IMG/VR virus record: IMGVR_UViG_3300038409_000042
Length of the DNA: 64,000 nt
Source: a virus
Taxonomy: Duplodnaviria; Heunggongvirae; Uroviricota; Caudoviricetes
Strand: one strand, 5' to 3'
A program made the position numbers and the translations under genes. Positions 13,810 to 60,400 of this stretch are shown here, in pieces. Each line of letters opens with the position of its first letter. The first letter of the stretch is position 1. Below the pieces are notes generated by a model. That model had not been told where the DNA came from, did no database searches, and saw only the letters and a program-made list of their open reading frames with translations.

Positions 13810-13933
13810 TAGGGGAGTCTACTTATGGAGATATAGCGGGGTAGATTAACGGCAGATCAGTAGGCTCATGCCCTACGCGTGTAGGTTCAACTCCTTCCCC
13901 CGCTCCCATCTCTTCTTGACAATGGATTATCAA

Positions 13934-14086
13934 ATGGCTAGAAAAAAGCCCGAAGAAAGCCGCGACGATTACGTAAACCGTAAGGTCGCCCACATGAATC
14001 GGATGGGCATTCCGGCGGTAATTTACCGTGGCGCAGCCTGTCCAGTTTGGCTGAAAGAGCAGCTAGAGAAGGACGAAAACAAGTGA
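13934..14086 (+). CDS. small basic hypothetical protein
   Basis: MARKKPEESRDDYVNRK... in frame with track ORF 13868-14086. First plus-strand gene after a TTGACA-containing divergent region. Confidence 0.3.
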   Translation: MARKKPEESRDDYVNRKVAHMNRMGIPAVIYRGAACPVWLKEQLEKDENK

Positions 14087-14103
14087 ACCAAGAAGACCCC
14101 GTT

Positions 14104-14838
14104 ATGAAGACGGCCGGCTGGCTAGTCCCACAAGGGCAGTTGGCCGTCTATATGCTTCTGGACCGCAGTGGCTCGATGGCGCATCGTTGGGAAGAGACAA
14201 TTAGCTCTCTCAATGCCTATGTCAGAGAACTTGCCGAAGGTGGTCAGGGCGATGCAGACATTACGATTGCTCTGTTTGACGAACATTGCGGTCTCCAGTT
14301 TGAGCTTGTCAGAGACAAGACGAAAGCCAAGGACTTCGTTCCTATAGACTTTCAACTCACGAGACCGAGAGGTTCAACGCCGCTCTATGATGCTTGCGGT
14401 AAGATTTATTCTCTTGCTGCCGAGAGGAATGAGCCAAAGACCGTTATGGTCATTCTCACTGATGGGCACGAAAACGCCTCCAAAGAAATGACCAAGAGTT
14501 TGGTCAAGAAGCTTATTGAAGACTTCAAGGCTAAGGTCTGGCAGACTGTGTTCCTTGGCGTTGACTTTGACGCCTATGGAGAGGCTGGCGCAATTGGTGT
14601 TCGCGCCTCCAATACCCTGAACACGCAATCAGCTTATGCTGGTCAAACGATGCGGTCTATGGCCTCCCGCACTGTAGCTTATGCTGGAGCGGCGACTCAA
14701 GACTTCGCAGAACAGGCCATGTGCTTCGATGTTGATGATACCGATCTTGGAAGTGGAAAACTTTCGATCGAAGAATGGTCAAAGCGCTACGAACAGAAGA
14801 TGAGGACTCAGAAAAAGGATGACAAAACCGGGCAATAG
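14104..14838 (+). CDS. von Willebrand factor A (vWA) domain protein
   Basis: MIDAS motif LLDRSGSM (DxSxS) plus downstream T and D residues. Start taken at ATG 14104; the track start (TTG, 14047) overlaps the upstream ORF. Confidence 0.7.
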   Translation: MKTAGWLVPQGQLAVYMLLDRSGSMAHRWEETISSLNAYVRELAEGGQGDADITIALFDEHCGLQFELVRDKTKAKDFVPIDFQLTRPRGSTPLYDACGKIYSLAAERNEPKTVMVILTDGHENASKEMTKSLVKKLIEDFKAKVWQTVFLGVDFDAYGEAGAIGVRASNTLNTQSAYAGQTMRSMASRTVAYAGAATQDFAEQAMCFDVDDTDLGSGKLSIEEWSKRYEQKMRTQKKDDKTGQ

Positions 14839-15085
14839 TCCCGGTAACTTTTGGACGGATGAAAAGTTAACGCTAACTGTAAATTTCTATTCTCAAGGGA
14901 TTCCGGTCAAGACGATCCGGGAGATTATCGGAGCAAAAACCGATAATCTAATAGTTTGTAAAATGTGGAGCCTCGGCGTAATATGGGGCGGCGGTATACG
15001 CCGCCGCGATAAAGAGCCTGAGCCAATCTATAAGCCCAAGTTCTTTACCGGCGACCGAGATGAAAGGAAGAGCATGCGTGTGTGA
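14819..15085 (+). CDS. hypothetical protein
   Basis: 88-aa ORF overlapping the vWA stop by 20 nt (coupled). Confidence 0.4.
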   Translation: MTKPGNSPGNFWTDEKLTLTVNFYSQGIPVKTIREIIGAKTDNLIVCKMWSLGVIWGGGIRRRDKEPEPIYKPKFFTGDRDERKSMRV

Positions 15086-15256
15086 GCCAGTAGGGACCGG
15101 GGACGCCCGGCGACTCCTGGGGTGGCTCTATTGTCAAGAAGTCCGGGCTGCGTCCATAGTGAAATACCTATAGCAGGCAGTGATCACACCGGATGCCACT
15201 TGACTTTTCTGGTTCGATTCCGGACACACGCTCCATTCCTTATTTAGGAGAAAGAA

Positions 15257-15676
15257 ATGACCAAGAAAATAACCGTAGTGATTCCAAAGCGCACGGCTGA
15301 AAACACTGTCGATGCAAAGGAACCACTGACAGTTAATATAACTGCTAGCGATATCCATGGCGCAACTCTTCTCAATCCAGAAAGTTGCGCCGCCGCCCGA
15401 TCCGTTAAGAGAACGCTCCATTGCCAGCGCGTGGAGATTTATCGTTCCAGAACTTATGTCTTCAATGGAAGAGGAAAATGGGTCAGATATAAAACCCCAC
15501 GATCTCTGAGAGAAGAAACGATTGTTCTGGACAGAGGCGGAAAATTCCAATCCGGCGAATACACATTCGATCAGCCGGAAGTCAGGACCTATAGGCCGGC
15601 GACTAAGGCCACAAAAACTACCAACAAAAAGTCTAAAGTCAGACGAATTTTAGCTGACGTTAGGCCAAGAGCCTAA
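15257..15676 (+). CDS. hypothetical basic protein
   Basis: RBS AGGAGAAAGAAATG. 139 aa. Strand-consistent with neighbours; the antisense ORF 15134-15550 is rejected. Confidence 0.5.
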   Translation: MTKKITVVIPKRTAENTVDAKEPLTVNITASDIHGATLLNPESCAAARSVKRTLHCQRVEIYRSRTYVFNGRGKWVRYKTPRSLREETIVLDRGGKFQSGEYTFDQPEVRTYRPATKATKTTNKKSKVRRILADVRPRA

Positions 15677-15679
15677 AGC

Positions 15680-15754
15680 GTCCCCTTAGCTCAATGGATA
15701 GAGCAGGAACCTTCTAAGTTCAAGATACGGGTTCGATTCCTGTAGGGGACGCCA
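15680..15754 (+). tRNA. tRNA-Arg (anticodon TCT), CCA encoded
   Basis: Hand fold: acceptor GTCCCCT/AGGGGAC; D-arm GCTC-AATGGATA-GAGC; anticodon loop CTTCTAA; T-arm ACGGG-TTCGATT-CCTGT; discriminator G then CCA. Confidence 0.75.
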
Positions 15755-15756
15755 AC

Positions 15757-15990
15757 ATGGGCATAAGGATAAAACCAAAAGACCTTAGAGAAGGAGATGT
15801 AATAGTCTCCAATAAAGACAGTATGTGCATGACCAAGGGAGAAAAATTCACAGTCTACAAGATTAACGACAAACCTTTTATCGTATGCTTCTATAGATGG
15901 GTTCATAAGCAATGGTGTTTAGAATCTCATCCTATCGGAAAAAGGCTTGATGATGAAGGATTTCTCGCTAACTTCTCGTGGCTAACGTGA
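15757..15990 (+). CDS. hypothetical small protein
   Basis: 77-aa ORF starting 2 nt after the tRNA. Confidence 0.45.
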   Translation: MGIRIKPKDLREGDVIVSNKDSMCMTKGEKFTVYKINDKPFIVCFYRWVHKQWCLESHPIGKRLDDEGFLANFSWLT

Positions 15991-16199
15991 ATAAACGTGT
16001 CTGCATAGACGGAACAACATCAGCAGGCTCTATATTAATAGACGGTAAGTTGTTCTGTTCTCTTCATCCAACTATAGAGGAACAATTAAACTCCAAGCCG
16101 GCTAGCAACGAAGCTGTTCGGGAAATGAAAATGCTACATTGCGTAGCAGACGCATTAGAAAAGTTCCTGGAGGAAGAGAGTAATGCAAGTCGTACATAA
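15978..16199 (+). CDS. hypothetical small protein
   Basis: 73-aa ORF overlapping the upstream stop. Confidence 0.45.
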   Translation: MANVNKRVCIDGTTSAGSILIDGKLFCSLHPTIEEQLNSKPASNEAVREMKMLHCVADALEKFLEEESNASRT

Positions 16200-16473
16200 G
16201 TATAAAGTCGCGCCGGATGGGTTCAATCACGGCATGTTCAAGATTCCTATGCCTGAGCACGCCGAGATCGTCCATGTGGACATAATCGATGGTCATCTTT
16301 GCTTCTGGGCAGAGATTACCAAAGAGAATAAGATGGAAGATAAACCCTTCCGTGTCTTCATGACTGGACAAGACGTAACGGATGGCGACGAATCCGAATG
16401 GCTAATCTACCATTTGAGAACGGTAGTTAATCATGATACGGGCGTTGTCATGCACGTCTACGAATACGTATGA
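16183..16473 (+). CDS. hypothetical protein
   Basis: 96-aa ORF with RBS GGAGGAAGAGAGTAATG. Confidence 0.5.
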   Translation: MQVVHKYKVAPDGFNHGMFKIPMPEHAEIVHVDIIDGHLCFWAEITKENKMEDKPFRVFMTGQDVTDGDESEWLIYHLRTVVNHDTGVVMHVYEYV

Positions 16474-16483
16474 GATAATGGTT

Positions 16484-16589
16484 GGTTCCGTAGCTCAGTA
16501 GTAGAGCGGCGATTAATAATCGCGTCAACACGTAGGATCGGCCGGTTTTATGTGTTATGCCCTCGGTGCAATTCCAGGCGGAACCACCA
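16484..16589 (+). ncRNA. atypical 106-nt tRNA-like element (canonical acceptor, D-arm and CCA; ~35-nt insertion and non-canonical T-arm)
   Basis: Acceptor GGTTCCG ... CGGAACC-A-CCA pairs 7/7. D-arm GCTC-AGTAGTA-GAGC. Hairpin GCGAT-TAATA-ATCGC occupies the anticodon-arm position. The remaining 37 nt (including GGCCGG) cannot be placed in a standard cloverleaf. Confidence 0.4.
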
Positions 16590-16593
16590 ATAT

Positions 16594-16667
16594 AGGCCGG
16601 TAGCTCAGCTGGTTAGAGCGCACGACTGATAATCGTGAGGTGGAGGGTTCGAATCCCTCTCGGCCTA
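16594..16667 (+). tRNA. tRNA-Ile (anticodon GAT)
   Basis: Near-identical architecture to E. coli tRNA-Ile(GAU). Acceptor AGGCCGG/TCGGCCT; TAGCTCAGCTGGTTAGAGC; anticodon arm CACGA-CTGATAA-TCGTG; T-arm GAGGG-TTCGAAT-CCCTC. No encoded CCA. Confidence 0.85.
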
Positions 16668-16744
16668 GAGCTAGTAGCCCAACGGCAGAGGCAGCGGTGT
16701 TAAGCTCCGTTCAGTGATGGGTTCGAATCCCTCCTAGCTCACCA
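16668..16744 (+). tRNA. tRNA, anticodon uncertain (loop contains TTAA; possibly TAA Leu-type or an expanded 9-nt loop)
   Basis: Acceptor GAGCTAG/CTAGCTC pairs 7/7. Discriminator A then CCA. Gln-like 3-bp D-stem GCC...GGC. T-loop TTCGAAT. Anticodon stem is imperfect: AGCGG-TGTTAAGCT-CCGTT gives a 9-nt loop. Confidence 0.5.
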
Positions 16745-16748
16745 TAAT

Positions 16749-16834
16749 CGACGGGTGGATGAGTGGATGAAATCGCCAGACTGTAAATCTGGCCCTTAAA
16801 AAGCACGCTGGTTCGAATCCAGCCCCGTCGACCA
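16749..16834 (+). tRNA. tRNA-Tyr (anticodon GTA), type II with long variable arm; CCA encoded
   Basis: Acceptor CGACGGG/CCCGTCG. Anticodon arm CCAGA-CTGTAAA-TCTGG. T-arm GCTGG-TTCGAAT-CCAGC. 86 nt; discriminator A then CCA. Confidence 0.75.
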
Positions 16835-16835
16835 T

Positions 16836-16907
16836 AGACCCGTAGCTTAACGGTAGAGCGCGCGCCTTATAAGCGTTAGATGCAGGGTTCGATTCCCGCC
16901 GGGTCTA
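16836..16907 (+). tRNA. tRNA-like gene, anticodon loop CTTATAA (TAT, Ile-like); weak anticodon and T stems
   Basis: Acceptor AGACCCG/CGGGTCT pairs 7/7. D-arm GCTT-AACGGTA-GAGC. T-loop TTCGATT. Anticodon stem has only 3-4 pairs. Confidence 0.45.
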
Positions 16908-16944
16908 CTTGCGTTACCCTAGAAATCAGAGATATTCTGGTCGA

Positions 16945-26231: not shown

Positions 26232-26266
26232 GGCCCGCTAGCCGAAAGGCTAGCGGGCCTTTTCTT
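26232..26266 (+). terminator. rho-independent terminator
   Basis: GGCCCGCTAGCC-GAAA-GGCTAGCGGGCC followed by TTTTCTT. Confidence 0.75.
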
Positions 26267-26383
26267 ATCCCGCTCCAGCGCAAGCTTAGCGGGAGATATC
26301 CCTAGAGATCGACACTGGCGGGGAGCTACTATTAATAATGGGCAATCTCACCCATAGGTCGTTGACAGAGACGGAGACAATCG

Positions 26384-26605
26384 ATGTGCTCTTATCATCA
26401 AGAACGACTCACCGAAGGACACATGGCGTTGATCCAGGAGAGATCGGATGTGGTCGATATGACCCCTGAAGACCTGGAGCATATCATGACAATGCTTCGG
26501 ACAAGAGGCGGCTCACGGTACAAGGACCTGATCGATGCTCTCGATTCGGTTCTGGAGACTGAGCCGAACCAAGAAGCCTTCCTTGTTATCAGATGCAAGG
26601 AGTAG
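26384..26605 (+). CDS. hypothetical small acidic protein
   Basis: RBS GGAGACAATCGATG. 73 aa. Confidence 0.5.
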   Translation: MCSYHQERLTEGHMALIQERSDVVDMTPEDLEHIMTMLRTRGGSRYKDLIDALDSVLETEPNQEAFLVIRCKE

Positions 26606-26609
26606 GGCC

Positions 26610-26768
26610 ATGGAGATAGTGTTAGCTATCACAGCTGGAATTGGTCTTGCCTTTGGCGCTGGTTATGCCATCGGCACAAAGAGAGGCCAAGAAGCTTGCG
26701 GCTATACCTGGAGTTGGCAAGCGTTCCTTGAAACCATTCCTCGATGGTGGAGAGGCACTGACAGCTAA
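26610..26768 (+). CDS. small membrane protein (one TM helix)
   Basis: RBS AAGGAG 7 nt before ATG 26610. MEIVLAITAGIGLAFGAGYAIG hydrophobic helix. Lies in frame inside track ORF 26535-26768. Confidence 0.4.
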   Translation: MEIVLAITAGIGLAFGAGYAIGTKRGQEACGYTWSWQAFLETIPRWWRGTDS

Positions 26769-26810
26769 CTTCCTGGCTAGGGGTCTAAAACCCCTAGCCT
26801 AAGTTCCCAA

Positions 26811-26868
26811 TAGTCAGCCTCCACGGGGCGGGAATGGGCAACAGTCTATTGTAGACTGGCTAATGACA
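26811..26868 (+). promoter_or_regulatory. conserved 5'-leader/intergenic motif, copy 1 of 6
   Basis: TAGTCAGCCTCCACGGGGCGGGAATGGGCAAC, then hairpin CAGTCTA-TTG-TAGACTG, then GGCTAATGACAG. Preceded by hairpin GGCTAGGGG-TCTAAAA-CCCCTAGCC. RBS and ATG 26885 follow. Confidence 0.6.
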
Positions 26869-26884
26869 GATTAGGAGTTGGTCT

Positions 26885-27247
26885 ATGTCTGACTTCAATA
26901 TCTATATCGCCAACATCGCACAGATACCGGCTATCGCCTTCTTCTCCACCAATGAGAAGGCCAAGGCTTGGTTGCTCGACAAGGCAAGGGGCGAGACATT
27001 TGATGTCAATGAGGCTAGCAAGCCGGACGCAGATGCAGTGATCATGGAAGACATTAGGAAAGCTATCCTTTCCATGGCCGAGATCGGGAGGGCAGGGTTC
27101 TCTGTGAAATGGGGGACCAATCCTGCTGATGCATATGCTGTTTGGCAAGCGTCCAAGGACATTAACGAGCGCATTGAAGGTGGGCTCGATGTATTCCAGG
27201 AGGGCGATCCTGGAGGGCCACTCAATCCTAAGCCTATAATGGTTTAG
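26885..27247 (+). CDS. hypothetical protein
   Basis: RBS AGGAG. 120 aa. Preceded by motif copy 1. Confidence 0.55.
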   Translation: MSDFNIYIANIAQIPAIAFFSTNEKAKAWLLDKARGETFDVNEASKPDADAVIMEDIRKAILSMAEIGRAGFSVKWGTNPADAYAVWQASKDINERIEGGLDVFQEGDPGGPLNPKPIMV

Positions 27248-27285
27248 AAGACAGGAGGGGCGAAAGCCCCTCCTTATATCCTCCC

Positions 27286-27354
27286 CAGGTCGGCGTCCAC
27301 GTCGCGGAGGATGGGCAATTGCGTCAGACAATGGGTCAGGCGCTAGCAAACGAC
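27286..27354 (+). promoter_or_regulatory. conserved 5'-leader motif, divergent copy 2
   Basis: CAGGTCGGCGTCCACGTCGCGGAGGATGGGCAA, then hairpin GCGTCAGAC-AATGG-GTCAGGCGC, then GCAAACGACC. A GC hairpin at 27253-27272 precedes it. Confidence 0.45.
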
Positions 27355-27370
27355 CTAAAGGGAAACTCAA

Positions 27371-27796
27371 ATGGCACAGTTCATTGATCCTCTGATTGCG
27401 GCGCTGACTGAAGAGACAGAGATGCAATCAAATCTTCGGAAGATGTATGACATGCTGACGCCGGAGAACTTCGCAGAAGGAGGCGTCGGCAGGGACGAAT
27501 TCAACAATCGTCTCTGCATCCTTGACGCTCTTGCGGTCGTACAGGGAAAGGCTCCGCTCTGGCAACGGAGCCATCCAACTAATGAAGAACTTGATCTCAT
27601 CTACGAAAGCCCTGAGGCCAATCTTCTCAACTGGATCGTGGATAACCGCCGAAACGAGTATCGCTCTCCCAATGGCTTCCACGCCAAAGCCTACGGCTAC
27701 AGCGACGGCGGCGTTCCTGTTGAAGACGTGCATCGGTTGATTGCTGCGGGCTATGTGCTCGCAGGCGATCTTGCCCAACAACTTCGGTTCATTTGA
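27371..27796 (+). CDS. hypothetical protein
   Basis: 141-aa ORF preceded by motif copy 2. Confidence 0.55.
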   Translation: MAQFIDPLIAALTEETEMQSNLRKMYDMLTPENFAEGGVGRDEFNNRLCILDALAVVQGKAPLWQRSHPTNEELDLIYESPEANLLNWIVDNRRNEYRSPNGFHAKAYGYSDGGVPVEDVHRLIAAGYVLAGDLAQQLRFI

Positions 27797-27825
27797 GCCA
27801 TGGGGCGCAAGCCCCATGTCCCCAT

Positions 27826-27882
27826 TAGTCAGCCTCTACGCGGCGGGGATAGAAACGACGAATATTTCGTCGGCTAATGACT
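27826..27882 (+). promoter_or_regulatory. conserved 5'-leader motif, copy 3
   Basis: TAGTCAGCCTCTACGCGGCGGGGATAGAAAC, then hairpin GACGAA-TATT-TCGTCG, then GCTAATGACTAG. Preceded by terminator-like hairpin GGGGCGCAAGCCCC. Confidence 0.6.
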
Positions 27883-27897
27883 AGGGAGTAAAGGACA

Positions 27898-28320
27898 ATG
27901 CGTAGCATTTCTTATCACAGCCTTGGAAGTGTTATGAAGCATATCGCGTCCAAAGAAGAAGCTCCATCATTTCGCAAGGTCCTGGGGTTCGTGATTGCTC
28001 ACTACCAGGACGAAAACAATTGGCTTCAGGGTGCGCCGTCAAATGACAACGGTTCCCGGCGTTGCTTGGGATTCAATATTCTTTGCGGCATCACCGGCAG
28101 CGGCCCTGAAGCGGGAGATCAAGTCTCGGTCGACAGAGAAGTCACGAATGCATTCCTTTCTCAACTCCAGCCGTTCTACCCGGAGAAATACCGGACAGGC
28201 GACGCCAGGGAGATGACGGCGGCATTCAACGACGATCCCGAAACGACCATTGATACTGTCCGGGGCGTTCTTGCGGCGGCCCTGAACAGCCTTCCACCGG
28301 AAGACGAAGCGGTCAATTGA
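27898..28320 (+). CDS. small Cys-motif protein family member (RRCLGFNILCGITG)
   Basis: RBS GGGAG. 140 aa. Shares the C-x-L-G...L motif with six downstream paralogs. Confidence 0.55.
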   Translation: MRSISYHSLGSVMKHIASKEEAPSFRKVLGFVIAHYQDENNWLQGAPSNDNGSRRCLGFNILCGITGSGPEAGDQVSVDREVTNAFLSQLQPFYPEKYRTGDAREMTAAFNDDPETTIDTVRGVLAAALNSLPPEDEAVN

Positions 28321-28350
28321 CCATGGGGGCTTTGCCCCCAGCCCTGCAAT

Positions 28351-28404
28351 TAGTCGGCCTCCACGTGGCGCAGGGCGGAAACTAGCGATGCTAGGCTAAC
28401 GACT
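28351..28404 (+). promoter_or_regulatory. conserved 5'-leader motif, copy 4
   Basis: TAGTCGGCCTCCACGTGGCGCAGGGCGGAAAC, then hairpin CTAGC-GAT-GCTAG, then GCTAACGACTG. Compensatory change AGTCG/CGACT versus AGTCA/TGACT in other copies. Confidence 0.6.
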
Positions 28405-28416
28405 GGAGCAACGATC

Positions 28417-28920
28417 ATGCAACCCACAAAAGAGCAACTTGAAGCCCGTGAACGCTTCCTCAACGCTCTTGTTCAGCACGATCTCACCCTCTTGATTGGA
28501 GACGTTCCGATCAAGATCAAACAAGGGCAAGGGCTCTTGGCGACCGAGCTTCCCCCAGAGGGAAGCCCGCACGAAGAAAAGACGCTTTACTGTTGTTGTT
28601 TGGGCGTCTCCTGTTTGGTCGAGAAGAATGAATTTTCTCCAAGATCGGACGGAGCTTACGCGTTCTCTCAAACGATTCACAACAAACGCTACAACAACAT
28701 CTCAGCCTATCCACAGACTGATTGGTTTTCGGACAAGTACGGCGTGAACGTCGACTATGCTGAGCCGATCATCTTCGGAGCGGCAGCGGCCAATGATGAG
28801 TTGAAGCTATCATTTAGCCAAATTGCAGCATGGCTGAAGCTTCAATTCGAGAATGCTGACAAGGGCGAACAAGTCCTTAATCCTCAGAGTTGGTGGGCCA
28901 ACAGAGGCAAAATCACCTGA
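28417..28920 (+). CDS. small Cys-motif protein family member (YCCCLGVSCLV); paralog of 29469-29915
   Basis: MQPTKEQLEARERF, CCCLGV, AAAANDELK and KLQFENADKG all align with 29469-29915. Confidence 0.6.
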   Translation: MQPTKEQLEARERFLNALVQHDLTLLIGDVPIKIKQGQGLLATELPPEGSPHEEKTLYCCCLGVSCLVEKNEFSPRSDGAYAFSQTIHNKRYNNISAYPQTDWFSDKYGVNVDYAEPIIFGAAAANDELKLSFSQIAAWLKLQFENADKGEQVLNPQSWWANRGKIT

Positions 28921-28950
28921 ACTTGGGGGCTCTGCCCCCAGCCCCGCATC

Positions 28951-29007
28951 TAGTCAGGCTCCACGCGCCGCGGGGTGGGCAACCTTTACAGGTTGGCGAA
29001 TGACTAA
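28951..29007 (+). promoter_or_regulatory. conserved 5'-leader motif, copy 5
   Basis: TAGTCAGGCTCCACGCGCCGCGGGGTGGGCAAC, then hairpin CTTTACAGG-like AACCT-TTAC-AGGTT, then GGCGAATGACTA. Confidence 0.6.
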
Positions 29008-29024
29008 ATCAAAGGAGCGAAACA

Positions 29025-29363
29025 ATGCAACCGAAAGATTATCTCACAACTGAGAGAGTTCGGAACACGCATCCTGAGAACGCAGCGCTTTATACCAAAT
29101 TGATCAAGCGGGCGTTCGGCGACAATATCGACGTGATCGTGGGTCATCATATCGGTTTCCAGGTGCATGAGCACATTGAGACCGAAAATGAAATCCCCAG
29201 CGCCGACACTTTGTTATTTGACCACGATATCATGTTCGCGGCATTTGGCGTGGATCGAGCATTGCGCCTCATGTCGGCAATGATTCGGGTTCCCTGCGAT
29301 CAGCGGGAAGTCATGGTGGCGAATGCCCTGGACGGCCTGGAGATCGATATTCAAGCAGCGTAA
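29025..29363 (+). CDS. hypothetical protein
   Basis: 112 aa with N-terminus MQPKDY. Same ATGCAACC start context as 28417 and 30049. Confidence 0.55.
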   Translation: MQPKDYLTTERVRNTHPENAALYTKLIKRAFGDNIDVIVGHHIGFQVHEHIETENEIPSADTLLFDHDIMFAAFGVDRALRLMSAMIRVPCDQREVMVANALDGLEIDIQAA

Positions 29364-29396
29364 GCTGCGGGGGCTTTATGCCCCTTGCTACCAAAA

Positions 29397-29450
29397 GGGC
29401 CGCCTCCACGTGGCGGTAGTGGAAACGACCATTTACGGTCGGCCAAGAGC
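29397..29450 (+). promoter_or_regulatory. conserved 5'-leader motif, copy 6
   Basis: GGGCCGCCTCCACGTGGCGGTAGTGGAAAC, then hairpin GACC-ATTTAC-GGTC, then GGCCAAGAGCC. Outer pair is GGCCG/CGGCC. Confidence 0.55.
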
Positions 29451-29468
29451 CCTAGAAGGAGAGCTAAA

Positions 29469-29915
29469 ATGACTCTATCGAAAGAGCGACTTGAAGCTCG
29501 GGAGAGATGGTTCAAGGCCCTGGAAGACCTCAATCTCATGATTGAGGGCCTTCCAATCAATCAGGGAAGGACGTACCTAGCCTTCAAACATGAAGAAGCG
29601 AAAGGCGTTAGTTGCTGCTGCTTGGGCGTTGCTCTTCTTGTCGAAAATGAGGACCATACGCCACTCTGCACGCCAGGAACTATTACCTTTCGTAAGGATG
29701 GAAACGAGTTATGCTCGTATCCTGCTACGGAATGGTTTAGCCAAACCTATGGCATTAGCGAGCAGAACGCCGACGAATTCATGAGAGCTGCGGCAGCGGC
29801 TAATGATGATATTCTGGCAAGTTTCCCGAGGATTGCAAGATGGGCTCGTCGACAATTTGACCGACTCGACAAGGGCCTGAAGGTGCAACGAATAGACCAG
29901 GAAGAACAAATCTGA
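29469..29915 (+). CDS. small Cys-motif protein family member (SCCCLGVALLV); paralog of 28417-28920
   Basis: Start corrected to ATG 29469 (RBS GGAG). MTLSKERLEARERW. 148 aa. Confidence 0.6.
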   Translation: MTLSKERLEARERWFKALEDLNLMIEGLPINQGRTYLAFKHEEAKGVSCCCLGVALLVENEDHTPLCTPGTITFRKDGNELCSYPATEWFSQTYGISEQNADEFMRAAAAANDDILASFPRIARWARRQFDRLDKGLKVQRIDQEEQI

Positions 29916-30048
29916 CTTTAGAAGGGCTGCGCGGCGAAAGCTGCGTGGCCCTTCGCTATTTATGAGGGACTAACTGAGCGAAAGCGAATTAGTCCTCTCG
30001 TAAGAGGGACCAATCTTGGCCCTCATTTTCCCTCGAAAGGAAAGAAAC

Positions 30049-30624
30049 ATGCAACCGACAATTCTCAAGAAGTCAAACAAGGCCCGCAATGTCAAGGCTC
30101 TGCGCCGCACGCGGGAATTGCTCACCCCTGAGAAGAACTGGATGAAGGGCGACTTCATCCAAACGGAAGATGGATATCAGACCGAAGTCAAGGCGCTGGA
30201 ACAACTCGCCCAAGGCAAGAGCTGCAAGTTCTGTCTGGCGGGTGCGTTTCGCGTGGCCTGCTATGAAGACGACAGATATCTGACGGCCCCAGACGGCTTC
30301 AATACCGAGCGCGACTCGTTTCTGTCAACCTTGATGAATGCGTGCATCGTGAAGGTCGGCGGCCAGAGCCGCAGCGCCATCAGCTTCAATGACTGTTTCG
30401 ACACGACGCATGAGCAGGTGCTGAAAGCCCTGGACTGCGCCATTGAAGAAGAGGCAGCGAGGCCAGAACCGAAAAAAGTCACGCGGACAATTGAAGTTGA
30501 ACTTCTTGTGTCCGATGCAGCCGAAGAGGAGCAAGCGCTTAATAGCATCATTGCCACCGTCAATAACTTCGCAACCTACAACGAGTCCATCATTGGAGCG
30601 ACTCGTTCTGGCGCGAAGAACTGA
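30049..30624 (+). CDS. small Cys-motif protein family member (SCKFCLAGAF; ALDCAIEEE)
   Basis: Start corrected to ATG 30049 (MQPTILKK). Shares the ALDCA motif with 32084-32572. Confidence 0.6.
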   Translation: MQPTILKKSNKARNVKALRRTRELLTPEKNWMKGDFIQTEDGYQTEVKALEQLAQGKSCKFCLAGAFRVACYEDDRYLTAPDGFNTERDSFLSTLMNACIVKVGGQSRSAISFNDCFDTTHEQVLKALDCAIEEEAARPEPKKVTRTIEVELLVSDAAEEEQALNSIIATVNNFATYNESIIGATRSGAKN

Positions 30625-30640
30625 GGACGAAACCTCGGAA

Positions 30641-30670
30641 GCGGGGGAGGCGAAAGCCTCCCCCAATTTC
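30641..30670 (+). terminator. rho-independent terminator-like hairpin
   Basis: GGGGGAGGC-GAAA-GCCTCCCCC followed by AATTTCCC. Confidence 0.55.
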
Positions 30671-30737
30671 CCACGGGTCGCGGAGTAAATGCTCCGCCTG
30701 ATGAGTCCCATCAGCCTTAGCGCTAAAGGAGCCAATT

Positions 30738-31067: not shown

Positions 31068-31119
31068 AAAATCGTTAATCCCTTGAATAAATCAACAAGG
31101 GATTGTATCATTAAGGATA

Positions 31120-31157
31120 GAGGGTTGCCGAGCAAGCTTGGCGGCCCTCTTTTTTTG
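31120..31157 (+). terminator. rho-independent terminator
   Basis: GAGGGTTGCCGAGCAAGCTTGGCGGCCCTC followed by TTTTTTTG. Confidence 0.7.
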
Positions 31158-54693: not shown

Positions 54694-54882
54694 ATGAATA
54701 GGCGATCTTTCCTAGCTTCACTGGCGGCAACGTTCGGGGTGGACGATCCCGCTGTTAACGGGTTGCTGGCAGGTTCGACTCCTGCGCCGCCAGCCAAGGT
54801 TCAAAGTTCATACTTCCAATGCGTTCGATACAAAGCCACCGAACGAATAGCTTACGGCTTTATTGACTCTAGAGTCCATTAG
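54694..54882 (+). CDS. small protein with twin-arginine (Tat) signal-like N-terminus
   Basis: MNRRSFLASLAATFG is an RRxFL Tat motif. 62 aa. Confidence 0.35.
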   Translation: MNRRSFLASLAATFGVDDPAVNGLLAGSTPAPPAKVQSSYFQCVRYKATERIAYGFIDSRVH

Positions 54883-57408: not shown

Positions 57409-60400
57409 CTATCTTGATTCCATTGGCTGAGGCTCCGCTGGCGTTATTTCTCTTGAAAATTGAGACCCCTTTTCTCTCAGAATAAAGCTCCTGATTGGCT
57501 CTGTGGAGGCTCTATATTCACGGACACGTCGTTGCCCGACCTTCATCTTCTCGCGATAAGTATCTTTAAGTCTTTCGTGGAATTCACGTATACTTTGTAT
57601 TTCCTGTTCTTTTTCTGCTTCTGATCTGTCAGAATCGGCTCTAATCGCTGCGATTTGTCTATTCATCTCAGCTTTAGAGTAACCAAGTTGTCGTTTCATT
57701 TCATCAACGTCACGTTCCATCCGGCGTGCGTTGCGCTCCGTCTGATCAACCGGGTCCAGAGCCCACGTGTTGAAGCCAAGGGCTCGCGCCGCCAGGGCCG
57801 AATAATCCTCTACATACTTGCCGCTAGTCGTGACGCCGTCTCCGAAAGTCTTATCCAGGAAGCGGCCCATAAAGCCGCTGGAGCCAAACTGTGGTCGCTC
57901 ATAGCCGCCAGCCAGAAGGTCAAGCTGTTGAAAGAGAGGGTCGACCATGCCGCGCATTATGGGGGGCATGTAATAATTAAATGCATAGGAAAGGAAGCCG
58001 GCTAATTTCTGTGTGTTACTTGCTCCCTCAGGCCAAAGATCATAGCCAGTGAAACGATCTTTTCCGGTTGTATAAGCAACTATGAAATCAATAAATGGAC
58101 CACCAGCACCAAGGTCAAATGGTAATTTCATGACAAGATTTGGCAGAATATCCTGATGGCCGCCTTCGAACATATTACGTCCAGCTTGGGCCATTGGTGT
58201 CCATGGGAGATAGACGCCAAGATCAGTAAGAACGAAGTTTCCATGAGAATCCCGAATTGGTAGCGGAATGACCCCAACATTTCTGCGGAGTTCTTTGGAC
58301 ATTGAGGCCCGAAGCGCTTCAGCTTCATCTTCATCAAGACCCATTAGTAAAGCCACGACGCTCCAGAGAAGTCCAGAATAGAGCATAATAGGAACTGATA
58401 GTCGCGTAATGTCCGACACGCCAGAGGCTAATATTTTTGGATTAATTTGCATAAATCCATCTCTGATTTTAGCCAATCCTCTTGTGCCGAGATCAACCAT
58501 CTTGGGGAAGAGCTTGTATTGCCAAGTAATGAATGGGAAGATAGTGTTTCTCAACAATCGAACAGCTGGAGGAACCAATGTATAGTCAGGTATCCATTCG
58601 AAGCTTTCAATAATGGCGTCTCCAGGAGCCATCTTTGAATGTTTCGTGTGGAAGAAAAACATTGTATAGCGGGCCATTGTGTCGTAGAAGTTGTAGAGGT
58701 CTGCCGCCTTGCCGCCAGCCTTCGTGATAATTCTTTCAACTTCCTTATAGGCAGTCTCTAATCCAGAAAGTGAAGTATTTTTCCTCTTAAGTTCTCTGAT
58801 CTTAAGCTCCGACAGAGCGTCAAGAGTTCTCCTGATTTCAGCCTCTGTAAACGTGCCTTGGATACCTCCGAGTTCCTTAAACAGTTGCCACATGGCGCTG
58901 TTCTTTTTAGAGTCGATAAGCGCCCTAGCCGCCCAAACCGTTGTATCGGCACCTAATGTATAGGAAGACCCAACGCCCCCAAGATAAAGTGTCATTATGT
59001 TCTGCATGATCTGCCGAACATGCGTTGGCGGGTTGAGAGTTGTGACAATCCTTTTGAACCCGCGCATAAATCGGCCGGTCGCCTTATCCACTAGTTTTTC
59101 AATCTCTGGCTGATTGACTGATGCAGCTCCAGCCATCCCGACAATGTCGTTGTAAATTGCCTTATGGACGATTAATCCAGAGATATCTCCATAAGCATAT
59201 GTGGTCGGGAGCTTTCGATACGTATCTTTATCAAACTGGACAATGTTTTCGAATGAAGTTCCAACACCAACCTTCACATTAGCATTCTTGAAGATTGTTT
59301 CTATTTCATCTATGAGTTCTTGGTTGACCTTTCTCAAGAAGGGATTTTCAAGGGTCTCTCTGCTGGCGGAAAGTCTACGAAGTTCATTCCCAAGCGCATC
59401 AAAGGTCATCGTTCTGCCGTGATATTTGACGAATTGGTGCGGGATAACCCATCCCATATTATTAATACCGGACACATCTGCCATATAGGCGATCTCTTCC
59501 ATGAACCTGATGACAGAGATATCCCGACCCTGACGAATAATGCCAGCATAGGTTAAGAAGAATGGATCGGTAATGAGACCGAGCGTAGCATCTTGCTCAT
59601 AAACTCTTCCCATGCTGGCCTTGTTATTTAGAGCCACACGGAATTGGTTCTGCATATAGTTATCGCCATAACGAGCGACAAACGTACCATTTTTCTTCTT
59701 TGGCTTAATGAAGCCAGAAGCATCTATCTTCTGTTTTACTCTTTCAAGTTCACTACGTGCCCTTGCCGCCAAGTTTCTTAAACCGTTGTGAGTAACTGAA
59801 CTGAGTTGTTTCTTTGGGTTTCTAAGGAATTCAATGAATTCATCCTTCTGAGTGATATTGGCAGTGTCCCATATCGGCTGCACGTCACGCCTCAATATCT
59901 CAACATTCATGGCCTCATCAACCACGTTAGAGGCGTTCCATATCTCCTGTCCGATGCTGTCTCCAAGACGCTGCTTGGTATATGACTGTCTAGAGGCTTT
60001 CAGGCCCTGTTGCGTAAGCTCCCTTTGGACGTATTCCATTAACATCCGTGGAAGGTACATACCCATGTATCTGGAATACTGAGCTGTATCCAGTACGCCA
60101 GTCTGCTGAAACTTCTTTCCGAGCCTCATAAACAGGTCTTTAGCCTCGATTGCTGCCGCTCTAATTTCTGGATTTGAAATTCCGAGAGGGGCCGCATTTT
60201 TATGCGTCATGTAGTAATTAAATTCGTCACGATCCTTCTGGCTTGCCGTGTTCATGAAGTGAATAAACTTCTGAGCGAATTCTTCGAATTCGTTAATGTT
60301 TCCCCCAGTTCTTCCTCTCGAAACGAGATAAAGATTCTGATAAGGAAGATCATTCAGAGTGAAATACCATCGAGTCCATTTGCTTGTTTTAAGAAGCTGT

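What the first reader, a model, noticed from the sequence alone, without database searches (positions are those of the whole stretch)
26780..29470. Six copies of a conserved structured ~60-nt element in the leaders of consecutive early genes
Upstream of genes 26885, 27371, 27898, 28417, 29025 and 29469, each terminator-like GC hairpin is followed by a conserved module. The module is TAGTC(A/G)GCCTCCACG(Y)GGCGGG-N3-8-GG(R)AAAC, then a short variable hairpin (stem 5-7 bp, loop 3-4 nt; CAGTCTA-TTG-TAGACTG, GACGAA-TATT-TCGTCG, CTAGC-GAT-GCTAG, AACCT-TTAC-AGGTT, GACC-ATTTAC-GGTC), then GGCTAATGAC(TA), then RBS and ATG. The 5' TAGTCAGCC and 3' GGCT-AA-TGACTA are inverted repeats. They covary between copies (AGTCA/TGACT in copies 3 and 5, AGTCG/CGACT in copy 4, GGCCG/CGGCC in copy 6), which argues for a conserved RNA or DNA secondary structure enclosing a sequence-conserved core. 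CCACGTGG is a perfect palindrome in copies 4 and 6. Candidate roles are RNase III-type processing sites between early genes (as in T7-like early operons), a phage-specific promoter/operator for a dedicated polymerase or regulator, or a translational control element. Copy 2 (27286-27354) is divergent. The six genes share no common orientation signal other than this motif.
Basis: seen in the sequence. Interest (0 to 1): 0.75.

Follow-up and report, generated by a model that had tools for sequence, protein, structure and literature searches.

The report
Six tandem HDV-like self-cleaving ribozymes
The repeated 65-79-nt element in front of six consecutive phage genes is a hepatitis-delta-type self-cleaving ribozyme sitting flush against a hairpin, so the phage probably cuts one long transcript into single-gene mRNAs by itself. 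The ribozyme class is known; one ribozyme per protein gene, six in a row, is unusual.

Summary
In detail: six related elements lie in six consecutive intergenic regions, all on the + strand.

They are HDV-like (delta-type) self-cleaving ribozymes, not RNase III sites, promoters or operators.
- GCC-TCCACGN-GGC is P3 plus loop L3.
- The variable hairpin is P4.
- GGCNAA is J4/2, which carries the catalytic cytosine.

All five helices form in all six copies, with compensatory changes. Rfam HDV models hit five copies, below their curated cut-offs. A model built only from other phage and genome examples ranks the six copies as the top six hits in the window.

The GC hairpins have no T-tail. Each ends -2 to +3 nt from the predicted cut.

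Likely mechanism (inferred): one polycistronic transcript cleaves itself into monocistronic mRNAs. Each would start with a 5'-OH ribozyme fold and end in a flush hairpin with a 2',3'-cyclic phosphate.

A seventh element at 30621-30714 fits a textbook type II hammerhead core.

Verdict: new members of a known ribozyme class in a notable arrangement. Cleavage itself is untested.

The parts
26775..26799 (+). GC hairpin 1 (GGCTAGGGGT-CTAAA-ACCCCTAGCC), no T-tail. Its 3' end lies 3 nt before cleavage site 1.
   Evidence: fold of the 40 nt upstream, -20.8 kcal/mol; not scored as terminator-like.
26803..26869 (+). HDV-like ribozyme 1. Predicted cleavage at 26802|26803. P1 26803-08/26830-35; P2 26811-16/26864-69; P3 26817-19/26827-29; L3 26820-26; P1.1 26836-37; P4 26842-58. 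Catalytic C at 26860. 15 nt to ATG 26885.
   Evidence: RF02682, 35.7 bits; 36.0 bits, E 5e-6.
27253..27274 (+). GC hairpin 2 (AGGAGGGGC-GAAA-GCCCCTCCT), no T-tail. Ends 3 nt before cleavage site 2.
27278..27356 (+). HDV-like ribozyme 2. Cleavage at 27277|27278. A1-U first pair; P1 7 bp ATCCTCC/GGAGGAT; long P4 27319-44. Catalytic C at 27347. 14 nt to ATG 27371.
   Evidence: 29.7 bits, E 1e-4. Not detected by the Rfam models.
27800..27817 (+). GC hairpin 3 (ATGGGGC-GCAA-GCCCCAT), flush with cleavage site 3.
27818..27883 (+). HDV-like ribozyme 3. Cleavage at 27817|27818. L3 is TCTACGC and P1.1 is AG, a compensated U-A pair. Catalytic C at 27874. 14 nt to ATG 27898.
   Evidence: (32.9 bits). One search gives only 16.3 bits, as a local match.
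28324..28340 (+). GC hairpin 4 (TGGGGGC-TTT-GCCCCCA), flush with cleavage site 4.
28341..28405 (+). HDV-like ribozyme 4. Cleavage at 28340|28341. P1 7 bp GCCCTGC/GCAGGGC. Catalytic C at 28396. 11 nt to ATG 28417.
   Evidence: 35.4 bits; 44.0 bits, E 9e-8.
28923..28941 (+). GC hairpin 5 (TTGGGGGC-TCT-GCCCCCAG). Overlaps the first nucleotide of P1 by 1 nt.
28941..29006 (+). HDV-like ribozyme 5. Cleavage at 28940|28941. P3 is GGC/GCC (compensated). J4/2 is GGCGAA, identical to HDV. Catalytic C at 28997. 18 nt to ATG 29025.
   Evidence: RF00094 33.1 bits; RF02682 30.4 bits; 43.2 bits.
29369..29385 (+). GC hairpin 6 (GGGGGC-TTTAT-GCCCCT). Ends 1 nt before cleavage site 6.
29387..29453 (+). HDV-like ribozyme 6. 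Cleavage at 29386|29387. P2 is AGGGC/GCCCT with a 1-nt spacer before P3, as in HDV itself. Catalytic C at 29443. 15 nt to ATG 29469.
   Evidence: 35.1 bits; 31.8 bits.
30621..30714 (+). Candidate type II hammerhead ribozyme in the next-but-one intergenic region.
- Stem II: GGAC 30625-28 with GUCC 30705-08, extended by CUGA 30621-24 with UCAG 30711-14.
- GAAA 30629-32.
- Stem III: long, containing the GC hairpin 30643-64.
- GUC with cleavage at 30679|30680.
- Stem I: 30680-97.
- CUGAUGA 30698-704.
   Evidence: the only hammerhead-descriptor hit in the window, against 0.07 per shuffle. Coordinates. The Rfam hammerhead models give nothing. The MFE fold prefers a competing CUGAUG/CAUCAG hairpin.
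26232..26267 (+). Hairpin with a T-run (GGCCCGCTAGCC-GAAA-GGCTAGCGGGCC-TTTTCTT). Probably a real terminator that closes the preceding unit, so it would be the upstream boundary of the ribozyme-bearing transcription unit.
   Evidence: Read directly from the sequence. Not listed by the scan.
29921..29954 (+). 15-bp hairpin with a weak T-rich tail after gene 6. Possibly the terminator of the six-ribozyme unit.
31119..31150 (+). Strong intrinsic terminator (hairpin plus TTTTTTT) after the HTH gene. End of the gene block.

Best explanation
Each of the six elements is an HDV-like (delta-type, nested double-pseudoknot) self-cleaving ribozyme encoded on the + strand.

SHOWN from sequence:
- All six copies form P1 (6-7 bp), P2 (4-6 bp), P3 (3 bp), P1.1 (2 bp) and a variable P4.
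- All six carry the conserved catalytic-core nucleotides: L3 U-C-C/U-N-C-G, and G-G-C-N-A-A in J4/2 with the C75-equivalent cytosine.
- The predicted scissile bond lies -2 to +3 nt from the 3' base of a stable GC hairpin that has no U-tract.
- The ribozyme ends 11-18 nt before the next start codon, with the SD in between.

INFERRED:
1. RNA polymerase reads through the hairpins. It must, because P1's 5' strand begins at the hairpin base and there is no room for a promoter.
2. The polycistronic transcript, running from about 26.3 kb to the terminator at 29.95 or 31.15 kb, cuts itself co-transcriptionally into gene-length mRNAs of about 450-600 nt.
3. Each upstream product ends in a flush hairpin with a 2',3'-cyclic phosphate. 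That end gives 3' exonucleases no single-stranded toehold and gives poly(A) polymerase no 3'-OH.
4. Each downstream product starts with a 5'-OH buried in the compact ribozyme fold, a poor substrate for 5'-end-dependent decay, followed by a standardised short leader with a free SD.
5. Every gene therefore gets the same insulated 5' and 3' ends, independent of host RNases and of its neighbours. The hairpin may also shield P1 from misfolding with the upstream ORF.

The confidence given is for the whole statement. Identity as HDV-like ribozymes alone is about 0.9. The mRNA-maturation role alone is about 0.6-0.7.
For: Rfam
- In E-value mode, RF02682 (the F. prausnitzii HDV-like ribozyme) hits five copies at 30.4-35.7 bits (E 6e-4 to 1e-2 over 6.5 kb). 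RF00094 (HDV) hits copy 5 at 33.1 bits.
- The two alignments shown that span P1 with few gaps (copies 4 and 6) start at my P1 position 1.

Structural descriptor
- It uses only five fixed bases (U20, G25, C75, A77, A78) plus the five helices.
- It finds exactly the six copies on both strands of the 64-kb window.
- The stricter version finds five, against 0.025 per dinucleotide shuffle.

Features the Rfam models do not score
- P2, P3 and P1.1 together are 95.5% paired. Six of 11 pairs have changes on both sides. 0 of 500 shuffles reach this, and slid controls give 20-47%.
- This includes the C-G to U-A swap in P1.1 of copy 3.
- P1 is perfect in all six copies. It is mostly specific to the cognate copy (26 of 30 cross-combinations fail). 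The product of the shuffle probabilities is 6e-7.

Independent model
- A covariance model was built from 13 IMG/VR and bacterial-genome examples only, covering the 5' half.
- It ranks the six copies as the top six hits in the window: 44.0, 43.2, 36.0, 31.8, 29.7 and 16.3 bits. The next hit scores 11 bits.

Family level
- Among 45 distinct sequences, 99.4% of cells are paired and all seven P1 pairs covary.
- An A-U first pair, as in copy 2, occurs in 8 of the 45.

Hairpins
- None of the six is terminator-like.
- All end -2 to +3 nt from the cut.
- The same holds for 46 of 47 unique IMG/VR examples. 77% of those have an upstream MFE of -12 kcal/mol or lower, against 9% of controls.
- 17 of 48 unique IMG/VR examples are likewise followed by SD plus an ORF.

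Genes
- Only g4 and g6 are paralogs, so the repeats are not a by-product of gene duplication.

Precedent
- Tandem hammerheads flank single genes in prophages and cleave in vitro and in vivo (PMC3088659).
- HDV-like ribozymes from phages are catalytically active (PMC10879173, PMC13635239).
Against: - No cleavage assay or transcript-end data exist for this phage.
- All Rfam scores are below the curated gathering cut-offs (44 and 50 bits). Copy 2 is not detected by Rfam at all.
- Copy 3 scores weakly with my model (16.3 bits).
- Copy 2 has A1-U and copy 4 has G1-C in place of the canonical G1-U wobble.
- Copies 3, 4 and 6 have AAA instead of GCAA in J1/4, so they lack the C41 equivalent.
- In copies 1 and 5 the folded upstream hairpin overlaps the first 1-2 nt of P1 (in copy 6 only an alternative, extended pairing does), and it could compete with P1.
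- The promoter, polycistronic transcription, and any gain in stability or insulation are inference.
- The host is unknown. In hosts with RNase J, a 5'-OH end can be destabilising rather than protective.
- No related phage was found, so orthologous conservation of the array could not be tested.
- The IMG/VR comparison set was recruited with a pattern derived from these copies and then filtered by pairing, so the family-level pair counts are partly circular.
Confidence: 0.8

Rival explanations
1. The elements have the HDV-like fold but are catalytically dead or very slow. They would act only as stable 5'-leader structures, for example to protect mRNA or set translation efficiency.
For: - The G1-U wobble is missing in copies 2 and 4.
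- J1/4 lacks the C41 equivalent in copies 3, 4 and 6.
- Rfam scores are below gathering.
- Some published candidate ribozymes proved inactive (PMC3088659).
Against: - Every residue known to be required for catalysis is kept in all six copies, although the flanking genes are unrelated: the C75 equivalent, U20/G25, the P1.1 pairs and A77/A78.
- P1.1 is maintained by a compensatory change.
- G-C and A-U first pairs are common in the wider family (21 and 8 of 45).
- A hairpin placed exactly at the scissile bond makes sense only if cutting occurs.
Confidence: 0.07
2. They are self-cleaving ribozymes whose activity is regulated by a metabolite, a protein or the state of the upstream hairpin. They would then work as gene-control switches rather than as constitutive processing sites.
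For: - glmS is a precedent, as is the reported modulation of the F. prausnitzii HDV-like ribozyme by GlcN6P (cited in PMC6765202).
- The hairpin overlaps the first 1-2 nt of P1 in copies 1 and 5 (in copy 6 only by an alternative pairing), which could gate folding.
Against: - There is no extra conserved domain beyond the minimal HDV-like core.
- P4 varies in sequence and length, so it is not a ligand pocket.
- Six unrelated genes would all share one regulator.
Confidence: 0.05
3. They are recognition sites for a host or phage endoribonuclease (RNase III type), as in the T7 early region.
For: The position between consecutive genes and the conserved structure resemble the T7 R0.3-R1.3 sites (my own knowledge).
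Against: - RNase III needs about two turns of dsRNA. The longest helix here is 7 bp inside the element and 7-10 bp in the hairpin.
- The conserved single-stranded nucleotides are those of the HDV active site.
Confidence: 0.02
4. They are DNA-level signals: a phage-specific promoter or operator, or repeated recombination sites that delimit exchangeable gene cassettes.
For: - A 20-nt conserved core lies upstream of every gene.
- Hairpin-plus-ribozyme units 4 and 5 are 80% identical over 61 nt, which could promote recombination.
- The genes between them are unrelated.
Against: - The spacing between the conserved blocks varies from 17 to 33 nt (read).
- No sigma-70-like site coincides with any copy.
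- Compensatory changes preserve pairing rather than sequence.
- G-U pairs in P1 and P2 would be C-A mismatches on the other strand.
- A role in cassette shuffling could still be a side effect.
Confidence: 0.02

Closest known systems
HDV-like ribozyme of Faecalibacterium prausnitzii (drz-Fpra-1; Rfam RF02682)
   Same: Best-scoring Rfam family for five copies. It shares the same fold, the same core words (CCUC-N-ACG-N-GG, GGCAAC, GGCUAA), and a full-length form with P4.
   Different: - Scores are 30-36 bits, below the family's 44-bit cut-off, so these are not members of that narrow family.
- That ribozyme is a single copy upstream of glmM in a bacterium (PMC6765202).
- Here there are six copies in a phage, each coupled to an upstream hairpin.
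Hepatitis delta virus genomic/antigenomic ribozyme (Rfam RF00094)
   Same: Nested double pseudoknot. L3 is UCC-N-CG, there is GGGCAAC after P1, and J4/2 is GGCGAA (identical in copy 5). Cleavage is 5' of P1 position 1 (my own knowledge of the HDV sequence).
   Different: - L3 is 7 nt rather than 8, and P4 is much shorter.
- The biology differs: mRNA punctuation in a dsDNA phage, against rolling-circle RNA replication.
Theta ribozymes (minimal HDV-like ribozymes of gut phages; PMC10879173)
   Same: HDV-like ribozymes encoded by tailed phages, on the sense strand and outside ORFs.
   Different: - Theta ribozymes lack P4, and their cleavage site abuts tRNA 3' ends.
- These have P4, no tRNA is adjacent, and they sit between protein-coding genes.
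Tandem hammerhead ribozymes flanking single genes in prophages (Perreault et al. 2011, PMC3088659)
   Same: Several self-cleaving ribozymes flank individual genes of varying identity in phage DNA. The proposed function is to process long phage transcripts into gene-length mRNAs. This is the closest functional precedent.
   Different: - A different ribozyme class.
- Two or three copies there, against six HDV-like ribozymes plus one hammerhead candidate here.
- The passages I read there do not mention a hairpin at the cut site; I did not read the whole paper.
RNase III processing sites of the T7 early operon; synthetic ribozyme insulators such as RiboJ (my own knowledge)
   Same: Works like them. 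Intercistronic cuts give each early gene its own mRNA with a 3' hairpin (T7) and a context-independent 5' leader (RiboJ).
   Different: Autocatalytic rather than RNase III-dependent, and natural rather than engineered.

Membership tests
HDV-like (delta-type) self-cleaving ribozymes | P1 helix of 6-7 bp. Its 5' strand starts at the cleavage site and its 3' strand directly follows P3. | tested here: met
   P1 is perfect in all six copies, and 26 of 30 cross-combinations with other copies fail. The product of the shuffle probabilities is 6e-7. The alignments agree. All seven pairs covary across the family.
HDV-like (delta-type) self-cleaving ribozymes | 3-bp P3 closed by a 7-8 nt L3 that carries U20, C21, C22 and G25. 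| tested here: met
   P3 is 100% paired, and 2 of 3 pairs show compensatory changes. L3 is TCCACGN in five copies and TCTACGC in copy 3.
HDV-like (delta-type) self-cleaving ribozymes | P1.1: two base pairs between L3 positions 2-3 and the two nucleotides after the P1 3' strand (the inner pseudoknot). | tested here: met
   100% paired. Copy 3 has a compensated C-G to U-A change. The Rfam models that detected the copies do not model this feature.
HDV-like (delta-type) self-cleaving ribozymes | P2 helix pairing the segment 5' of P3 with the 3' end (the outer pseudoknot). | tested here: met
   4-6 bp in every copy. 91.7% of cells are paired and 3 of 6 pairs show changes on both sides.
HDV-like (delta-type) self-cleaving ribozymes | A catalytic cytosine in J4/2 (the C75 equivalent), followed by N-A-A before the P2 3' strand. 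| tested here: met
   GGC-N-AA in five copies and AGC-A-AA in copy 2. The C positions are 26860, 27347, 27874, 28396, 28997 and 29443. Only presence was tested, not function.
HDV-like (delta-type) self-cleaving ribozymes | A G1-U37 wobble at the cleavage site. | tested here: inconclusive
   G-U in copies 1, 3, 5 and 6. G-C in copy 4. A-U in copy 2. Across 45 distinct family members the split is G-C 21, G-U 16 and A-U 8.
HDV-like (delta-type) self-cleaving ribozymes | A score at or above the curated Rfam gathering threshold of an HDV-type family (RF02682, RF00094). | tested here: not met
   30.4-35.7 bits against 44, and 28.9-33.1 bits against 50. Copy 2 is not reported. In my judgement these Rfam families are narrow, and Rfam has no general HDV-like model (my own knowledge).
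HDV-like (delta-type) self-cleaving ribozymes | Divalent-ion-dependent self-scission that yields 5'-OH and 2',3'-cyclic phosphate ends. | not testable with these tools
   Requires in vitro transcription and cleavage assays, or end-specific RNA-seq.
Theta ribozymes (minimal HDV-like, tRNA-associated) | No P4 domain, and a cleavage site adjacent to a tRNA. | tested here: not met
   P4 hairpins of 13-26 nt are present. The nearest tRNAs are at 16.9 kb and 38.4 kb.
RNase III processing sites (T7 early type) | An extended, roughly 20-bp, irregular double-stranded stem that contains the cut site. | tested here: not met
   The longest uninterrupted helices are 7 bp in the element and 7-10 bp in the hairpin.
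Intrinsic (Rho-independent) terminators, for the six GC hairpins | A GC-rich hairpin followed directly by a U-tract. | tested here: not met
   None of the six is returned by the terminator scan, whereas 25720-49, 29921-54 and 31119-50 are. The tails read CTAAGTTC, TATATCCT, GTCCCCAT, GCCCTGCA, CCCCGCAT and TGCTACCA.
Sigma-70-type or phage-specific promoter | Two conserved blocks at fixed spacing upstream of a start site. | tested here: not met
   No promoter-like site coincides with any copy. The distance from AAC to TGAC/CGAC varies from 17 to 33 nt (read).
Hammerhead ribozyme, type II (the seventh element, 30621-30714) | The core C3-U4-G5-A6-N7-G8-A9, G12-A13-A14, A15.1-U16.1 and H17, enclosed by stems I and III (closed) and stem II (open). 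| tested here: inconclusive
   - The core is complete, with GUC at the cleavage site. Stems are 6, 4(+4) and 4 bp.
- It is the only descriptor hit in the window, against 0.07 per shuffle.
- A 3-bp pseudoknot between loop I and the 3' tail (AUG/CAU) is possible, as described for type II hammerheads (PMC3088659).
- Against it: no Rfam hammerhead model reports it even at E<=10, and the MFE fold prefers a competing hairpin.

The most novel reading that the evidence does not exclude
The array may do more than tidy up mRNA.
- Every excised gene-length RNA would carry a 5'-OH and a 2',3'-cyclic phosphate. These are the substrate ends of RtcB-type RNA ligases.
- The same phage encodes a Ro60 (TROVE/VWA) protein with Y-RNA-like tRNA mimics. 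In bacteria that module is genetically linked to RtcB RNA repair (my own knowledge).
- The phage might therefore deliberately make 'repair-type' RNA ends. The purpose could be to circularise or re-join its early mRNAs, or to hide them from host decay and defence pathways that sense 5'-triphosphate or monophosphate and 3'-OH ends.
- The hairpin-ribozyme unit would then be a general, terminator-independent device for forming 3' ends in phages.
Probability: 0.06. Interest if true: 0.85.

Novelty: new member of a known kind. Interest (0 to 1): 0.5.

Why it matters
Most bacterial and phage self-cleaving ribozymes still have no established function. Processing of polycistronic transcripts has only been 'suggested' (PMC6765202, PMC3088659).

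This locus is an unusually clean natural case:
- There is one ribozyme per gene for six unrelated genes.
- Each cut is placed at the base of a hairpin.
- Each ribozyme ends a fixed short distance before an SD.

It makes specific, cheap predictions: six cut sites and six C-to-U knock-outs. It also suggests that a host-independent 'ribozyme plus flush hairpin' unit defines both mRNA ends. The same bipartite unit recurs in 46 of 47 other phage examples examined here, upstream of ORFs and of tRNAs. It would also be a ready-made natural insulator part for synthetic operons.

It is not a new ribozyme class.

Tried and rejected
1. MAFFT plus RNAalifold on the six copies. MAFFT misaligns the P1 5' strand and P4. 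I rejected that extension because those pairs break in copies 2 and 5, where P3 is compensated.
2. Sigma-70 promoter and terminator reading of the hairpin and core: no support.
3. N4-type hairpin promoters for an injected polymerase. I considered this because of the 3-nt CAC loop and the 3655-aa virion-size ORF. I dropped it because the loops of the upstream hairpins vary, the CAC 'loop' is L3 of the ribozyme, and the same module occurs in unrelated gut phages.
4. Integron attC-like cassettes: no R'/R'' cores, and the fold is not a single bulged hairpin.
5. Hammerhead reading of the six copies (GAAAC, CUAAUGA): the core is incomplete and the helix order is wrong.
6. Relatives of the phage.
   - blastn of the region against GenBank phages: no match.
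   - tblastn of g4: none.
   - Terminase: at most 44% identity, to aquatic phages.
   - IMG/VR by protein: none.
   - The 5.8-billion-protein search returned only the protein itself.
   - The encoding contigs are the same phage at 99.9-100% identity.
   - DUF932 relatives in metagenomes are at most 38% identical and carry no ribozymes.
   - So no orthologous comparison was possible.
7. A phage-specific DNA pattern in IMG/VR: 12 of 13 hits were chance coding matches.
8. The same core pattern in bacterial genomes: only 9 of 120 loci pass the fold descriptor.
9. blastn of one unit against GenBank phages: only short chance matches.
10. A full-length covariance model was abandoned because P4 length variation wrecks the alignment. 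A 5'-half model was used instead.
11. More copies elsewhere. None in the window. None in 11.3 of the 13.5 kb of the genome that lie outside the window.

Full report
WHAT IS THERE

The window is most of a roughly 77.5-kb tailed-phage genome (contig lengths). Its terminase is at most 44% identical to those of aquatic phages such as Pelagibacter phage HTVC027P.

Between 26.3 and 31.1 kb lies a run of small + strand genes:
- g0a 26384-26605 and g0b 26610-26768.
- g1 26885, g2 27371, g3 27898, g4 28417, g5 29025, g6 29469.
- g7 30049 and the HTH gene g8 30738.

Only g4 and g6 are paralogs, at 42% identity. g3 and g7 are DUF6197 proteins. The rest have no family.

The 21-nt core matches four of the six copies, plus one unrelated coding site, at up to 3 mismatches. 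Zero matches are expected in shuffles.

IDENTIFICATION

A gathering-threshold Rfam scan of the window reports only tRNAs. In E-value mode, however, five of the six elements hit HDV-type ribozyme models.
- RF02682 (the F. prausnitzii HDV-like ribozyme) scores 35.7, 35.4, 35.1, 32.9 and 30.4 bits.
- RF00094 (HDV itself) scores 33.1 bits for copy 5.
- These matches span essentially the full models.

Mapping the HDV architecture onto the copies gives, in order:
1. P1 5' strand (6-7 nt).
2. J1/2 (2-3 nt).
4. P3 (GCC).
5. L3 (TCCACGN).
6. P3' (GGC).
7. P1' (GGGAAT, GGAGGAT, GGGGAT, GCAGGGC, GCGGGGT, GGTAGT).
8. P1.1 (GG; AG in copy 3).
9. J1/4 (GCAA or AAA).
10. P4 (the variable hairpin).
11. J4/2 (GGC-N-AA, with the C75-equivalent cytosine).
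12. P2' (TGACTA).

Copy 5 carries GGGCAAC and GGCGAAUG, the same words as the genomic HDV ribozyme.

TESTS OF THE FOLD

Descriptor search. I wrote a descriptor that demands the five helices plus only five fixed bases (U20, G25, C75, A77, A78).
- It returns exactly the six copies and nothing else on either strand of the window.
- The stricter version returns five, against 0.025 hits per dinucleotide-shuffled window.

Pair counts on the six copies. Two features are invisible to the Rfam models that flagged the copies, so they are independent checks.
- P2, P3 and P1.1 together are 95.5% paired. Six of 11 pairs have changes on both sides. No shuffle out of 500 reaches this, and slid controls give 20-47%.
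- P1.1 shows a C-G to U-A double change in copy 3.
- P3 covaries in copies 2 (GCG/CGC) and 5 (GGC/GCC).
- P1 is perfect in all six. It is mostly specific to the cognate copy. The product of the per-copy shuffle probabilities is 6e-7.
- G-U pairs in P1 and P2 place the structure in the sense-strand RNA.

Independent model. I built a covariance model from the 5' halves of 13 examples from other phage contigs and bacterial genomes, using no window sequence.
- With filters off, it ranks the six copies as the top six hits in the window: 44.0, 43.2, 36.0, 31.8, 29.7 and 16.3 bits.
- The best background hit scores 11 bits.
- The E-values of this model are rough.

No further copy is found in the window. 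None is found in 11.3 of the 13.5 kb of the genome outside it.

THE WIDER FAMILY

Of these, 48 unique sequences satisfy the full descriptor.

A model-guided alignment of 45 distinct sequences is 99.4% paired, and all seven P1 pairs covary. This alignment is fitted to the model, and the set was recruited with a pattern derived from the window copies.

The first P1 pair is G-C in 21, G-U in 16 and A-U in 8 of the 45. The A1 of copy 2 and the G-C of copy 4 are therefore normal for this group.

Downstream context among the 48 unique sequences:
- 17 are followed by SD plus an ORF within 21-56 nt.
- 15 are followed by a tRNA within 4-15 nt.
- 16 are followed by neither of these.

Arrays of 3-6 copies occur, but in the loci I inspected they sit in tRNA clusters.

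In bacterial genomes the same pattern is mostly chance. Only 9 of 120 loci pass the descriptor, mainly gut Clostridia.

THE HAIRPINS

None of the six GC hairpins has a T-tail, and none is scored terminator-like. True terminator-like sites flank the block at 25720-49, 29921-54 and 31119-50. There is also a hairpin with a T-run at 26232-67 (read).

Each hairpin's 3' end lies -2 to +3 nt from the predicted scissile bond. Each stop codon is only 20-34 nt upstream of the cut.

The coupling is general:
- In 46 of 47 unique IMG/VR examples the upstream hairpin ends within -2 to +4 nt of the cut.
- 77% of those have an upstream MFE of -12 kcal/mol or lower, against 9% of random 42-mers from the same loci.

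P1's 5' strand starts at the hairpin base, so there is no room for a promoter. The ribozyme can exist only in transcripts that read through the hairpin.

MECHANISM (INFERRED)

One transcript would run from a promoter between about 26.27 and 26.38 kb through g6, perhaps through g8. It would cleave itself six times, releasing RNAs of about 446-600 nt.

Each released RNA would have this form: 5'-OH, ribozyme (65-79 nt), an 11-18 nt spacer with the SD, the ORF, a flush hairpin, and a 2',3'-cyclic phosphate.

From general knowledge of bacterial RNA decay:
- A base-paired 3' end without an overhang and without a 3'-OH resists PNPase, RNase II, RNase R and polyadenylation.
- A structured 5'-OH end is a poor entry site for 5'-monophosphate-dependent RNase E. 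In hosts with RNase J the effect could be the opposite.

The arrangement works like the RNase III sites of the T7 early operon and like synthetic ribozyme insulators. It needs no host enzyme.

The hairpin may also keep upstream ORF sequence from mispairing with P1. An effect of that kind is described for HDV (my own knowledge).

A SEVENTH RIBOZYME?

The intergenic region before the HTH gene contains the only hammerhead-descriptor hit in the window, against 0.07 expected per shuffle. It is a type II hammerhead with these features (coordinates):
- CUGAUGA, GAAA, A15.1-U16.1 and a GUC cut site at 30679|30680.
- A 6-bp stem I.
- Stem II formed by GGAC, immediately after the g7 stop codon, pairing with GUCC.
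- A long stem III that again contains a GC hairpin, so the upstream product would again end base-paired.

Against it:
- Rfam's hammerhead models do not report it.
- The MFE fold prefers a competing hairpin.

I rate it at about 0.6.

The g6-g7 spacer (29916-30048) is strongly structured, with z = -7. It matches no ribozyme family. Its only Rfam hit is a weak one to the Rhizobiales sRNA Atu_Ti4 (26.5 bits).

COMPARISON WITH WHAT IS KNOWN

HDV-like ribozymes are a known class, and they are known in phages:
- Theta ribozymes are minimal, lack P4 and sit next to tRNAs (PMC10879173).
- An Ackermannviridae example has a crystal structure and measured activity (PMC13635239).

Tandem hammerheads flanking single genes in prophages were shown to cleave, and were proposed to cut long phage transcripts into gene-length mRNAs (PMC3088659). 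A 2019 review still calls this role only suggested (PMC6765202).

In the searchable library I found no description of either of two things:
- an array of full-length HDV-like ribozymes punctuating a protein-coding operon;
- the hairpin placed flush at the cut site.

The library is incomplete.

VERDICT

These are new members of a known ribozyme class in a striking arrangement that may be informative for function. They are not a new kind of element.

I put about 0.9 on the statement that they are HDV-like ribozymes. I put about 0.6-0.7 on the statement that they serve to mature the operon's mRNAs as described.

Noticed in passing
window 30621-30714 (+): A candidate type II hammerhead ribozyme lies in the spacer between g7 (DUF6197) and the HTH gene. 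The core is complete, the cut would be at 30679|30680, and stem III contains a GC hairpin. It is the only descriptor hit in the window (0.07 per shuffle), but the Rfam hammerhead models do not report it.
   Followed up: partly
window 29916-30048 (+): The spacer between g6 and g7 is highly structured (MFE z = -7). It holds a 15-bp GAAA-loop hairpin with a weak T tail. After that, GAGGGAC occurs twice around GTCCTC, which allows two mutually exclusive pairings, and a small hairpin overlaps the SD. There is a weak Rfam match to the Rhizobiales sRNA Atu_Ti4 (26.5 bits versus GA 40) that extends into the start codon. Function unknown.
   Followed up: partly
window 38130-40049 (+): A Ro60-type gene (TROVE plus VWA, 38700-40049) is preceded by three repeated units of the form GTGGCGTTAGA...GTTACTTCG. 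Each is fused to a tRNA-like domain.
- Rfam tRNA hits at 38162-38225 (partial match) and 38430-38498 (weak score).
- A weak YrlA hit at 38315-38381.
- ARAGORN calls only one tRNA-Ser, at 38428-38497.
This looks like a phage-borne Ro/Y-RNA module.
   Followed up: partly
window 57409-64000 (-), continuing beyond the window (L269 1-9961): The 2122-aa ORF at the window edge is part of a 3655-aa protein with an LPD23 'polyvalent protein' domain. That is the size of an injected virion protein. No polymerase domain was detected by Pfam in the window-encoded 2122 aa that I scanned.
   Followed up: no
L015 1303-5088, L079, L083 4198-6718, L115 7759-11546, L029, L046 (IMG/VR gut-phage contigs): Arrays of 3-6 full-length HDV-like ribozymes lie inside phage tRNA clusters. 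Each follows a hairpin, and many end 4-15 nt before a tRNA 5' end. This geometry differs from the published theta ribozymes, whose cleavage site abuts the tRNA. This window's own tRNA cluster (13835-16908) has none.
   Followed up: partly
window 27898-30624 (+): Four of the genes served by ribozymes share a Cys-Leu-Gly motif. g3 and g7 are DUF6197 proteins, and the g4/g6 paralogs carry CCCLGV. This suggests an expanded family of small accessory proteins. g4 has no homolog other than itself among 5.8 billion proteins.
   Followed up: partly
window 16484-16586 (+) and 54721-54793 (+): Extra weak tRNA-model hits that ARAGORN does not call: a 103-nt tRNA match (36.7 bits) next to the tRNA cluster, and a tRNA-Sec-model match (29.1 bits). 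Possibly interrupted or degenerate tRNAs.
   Followed up: no
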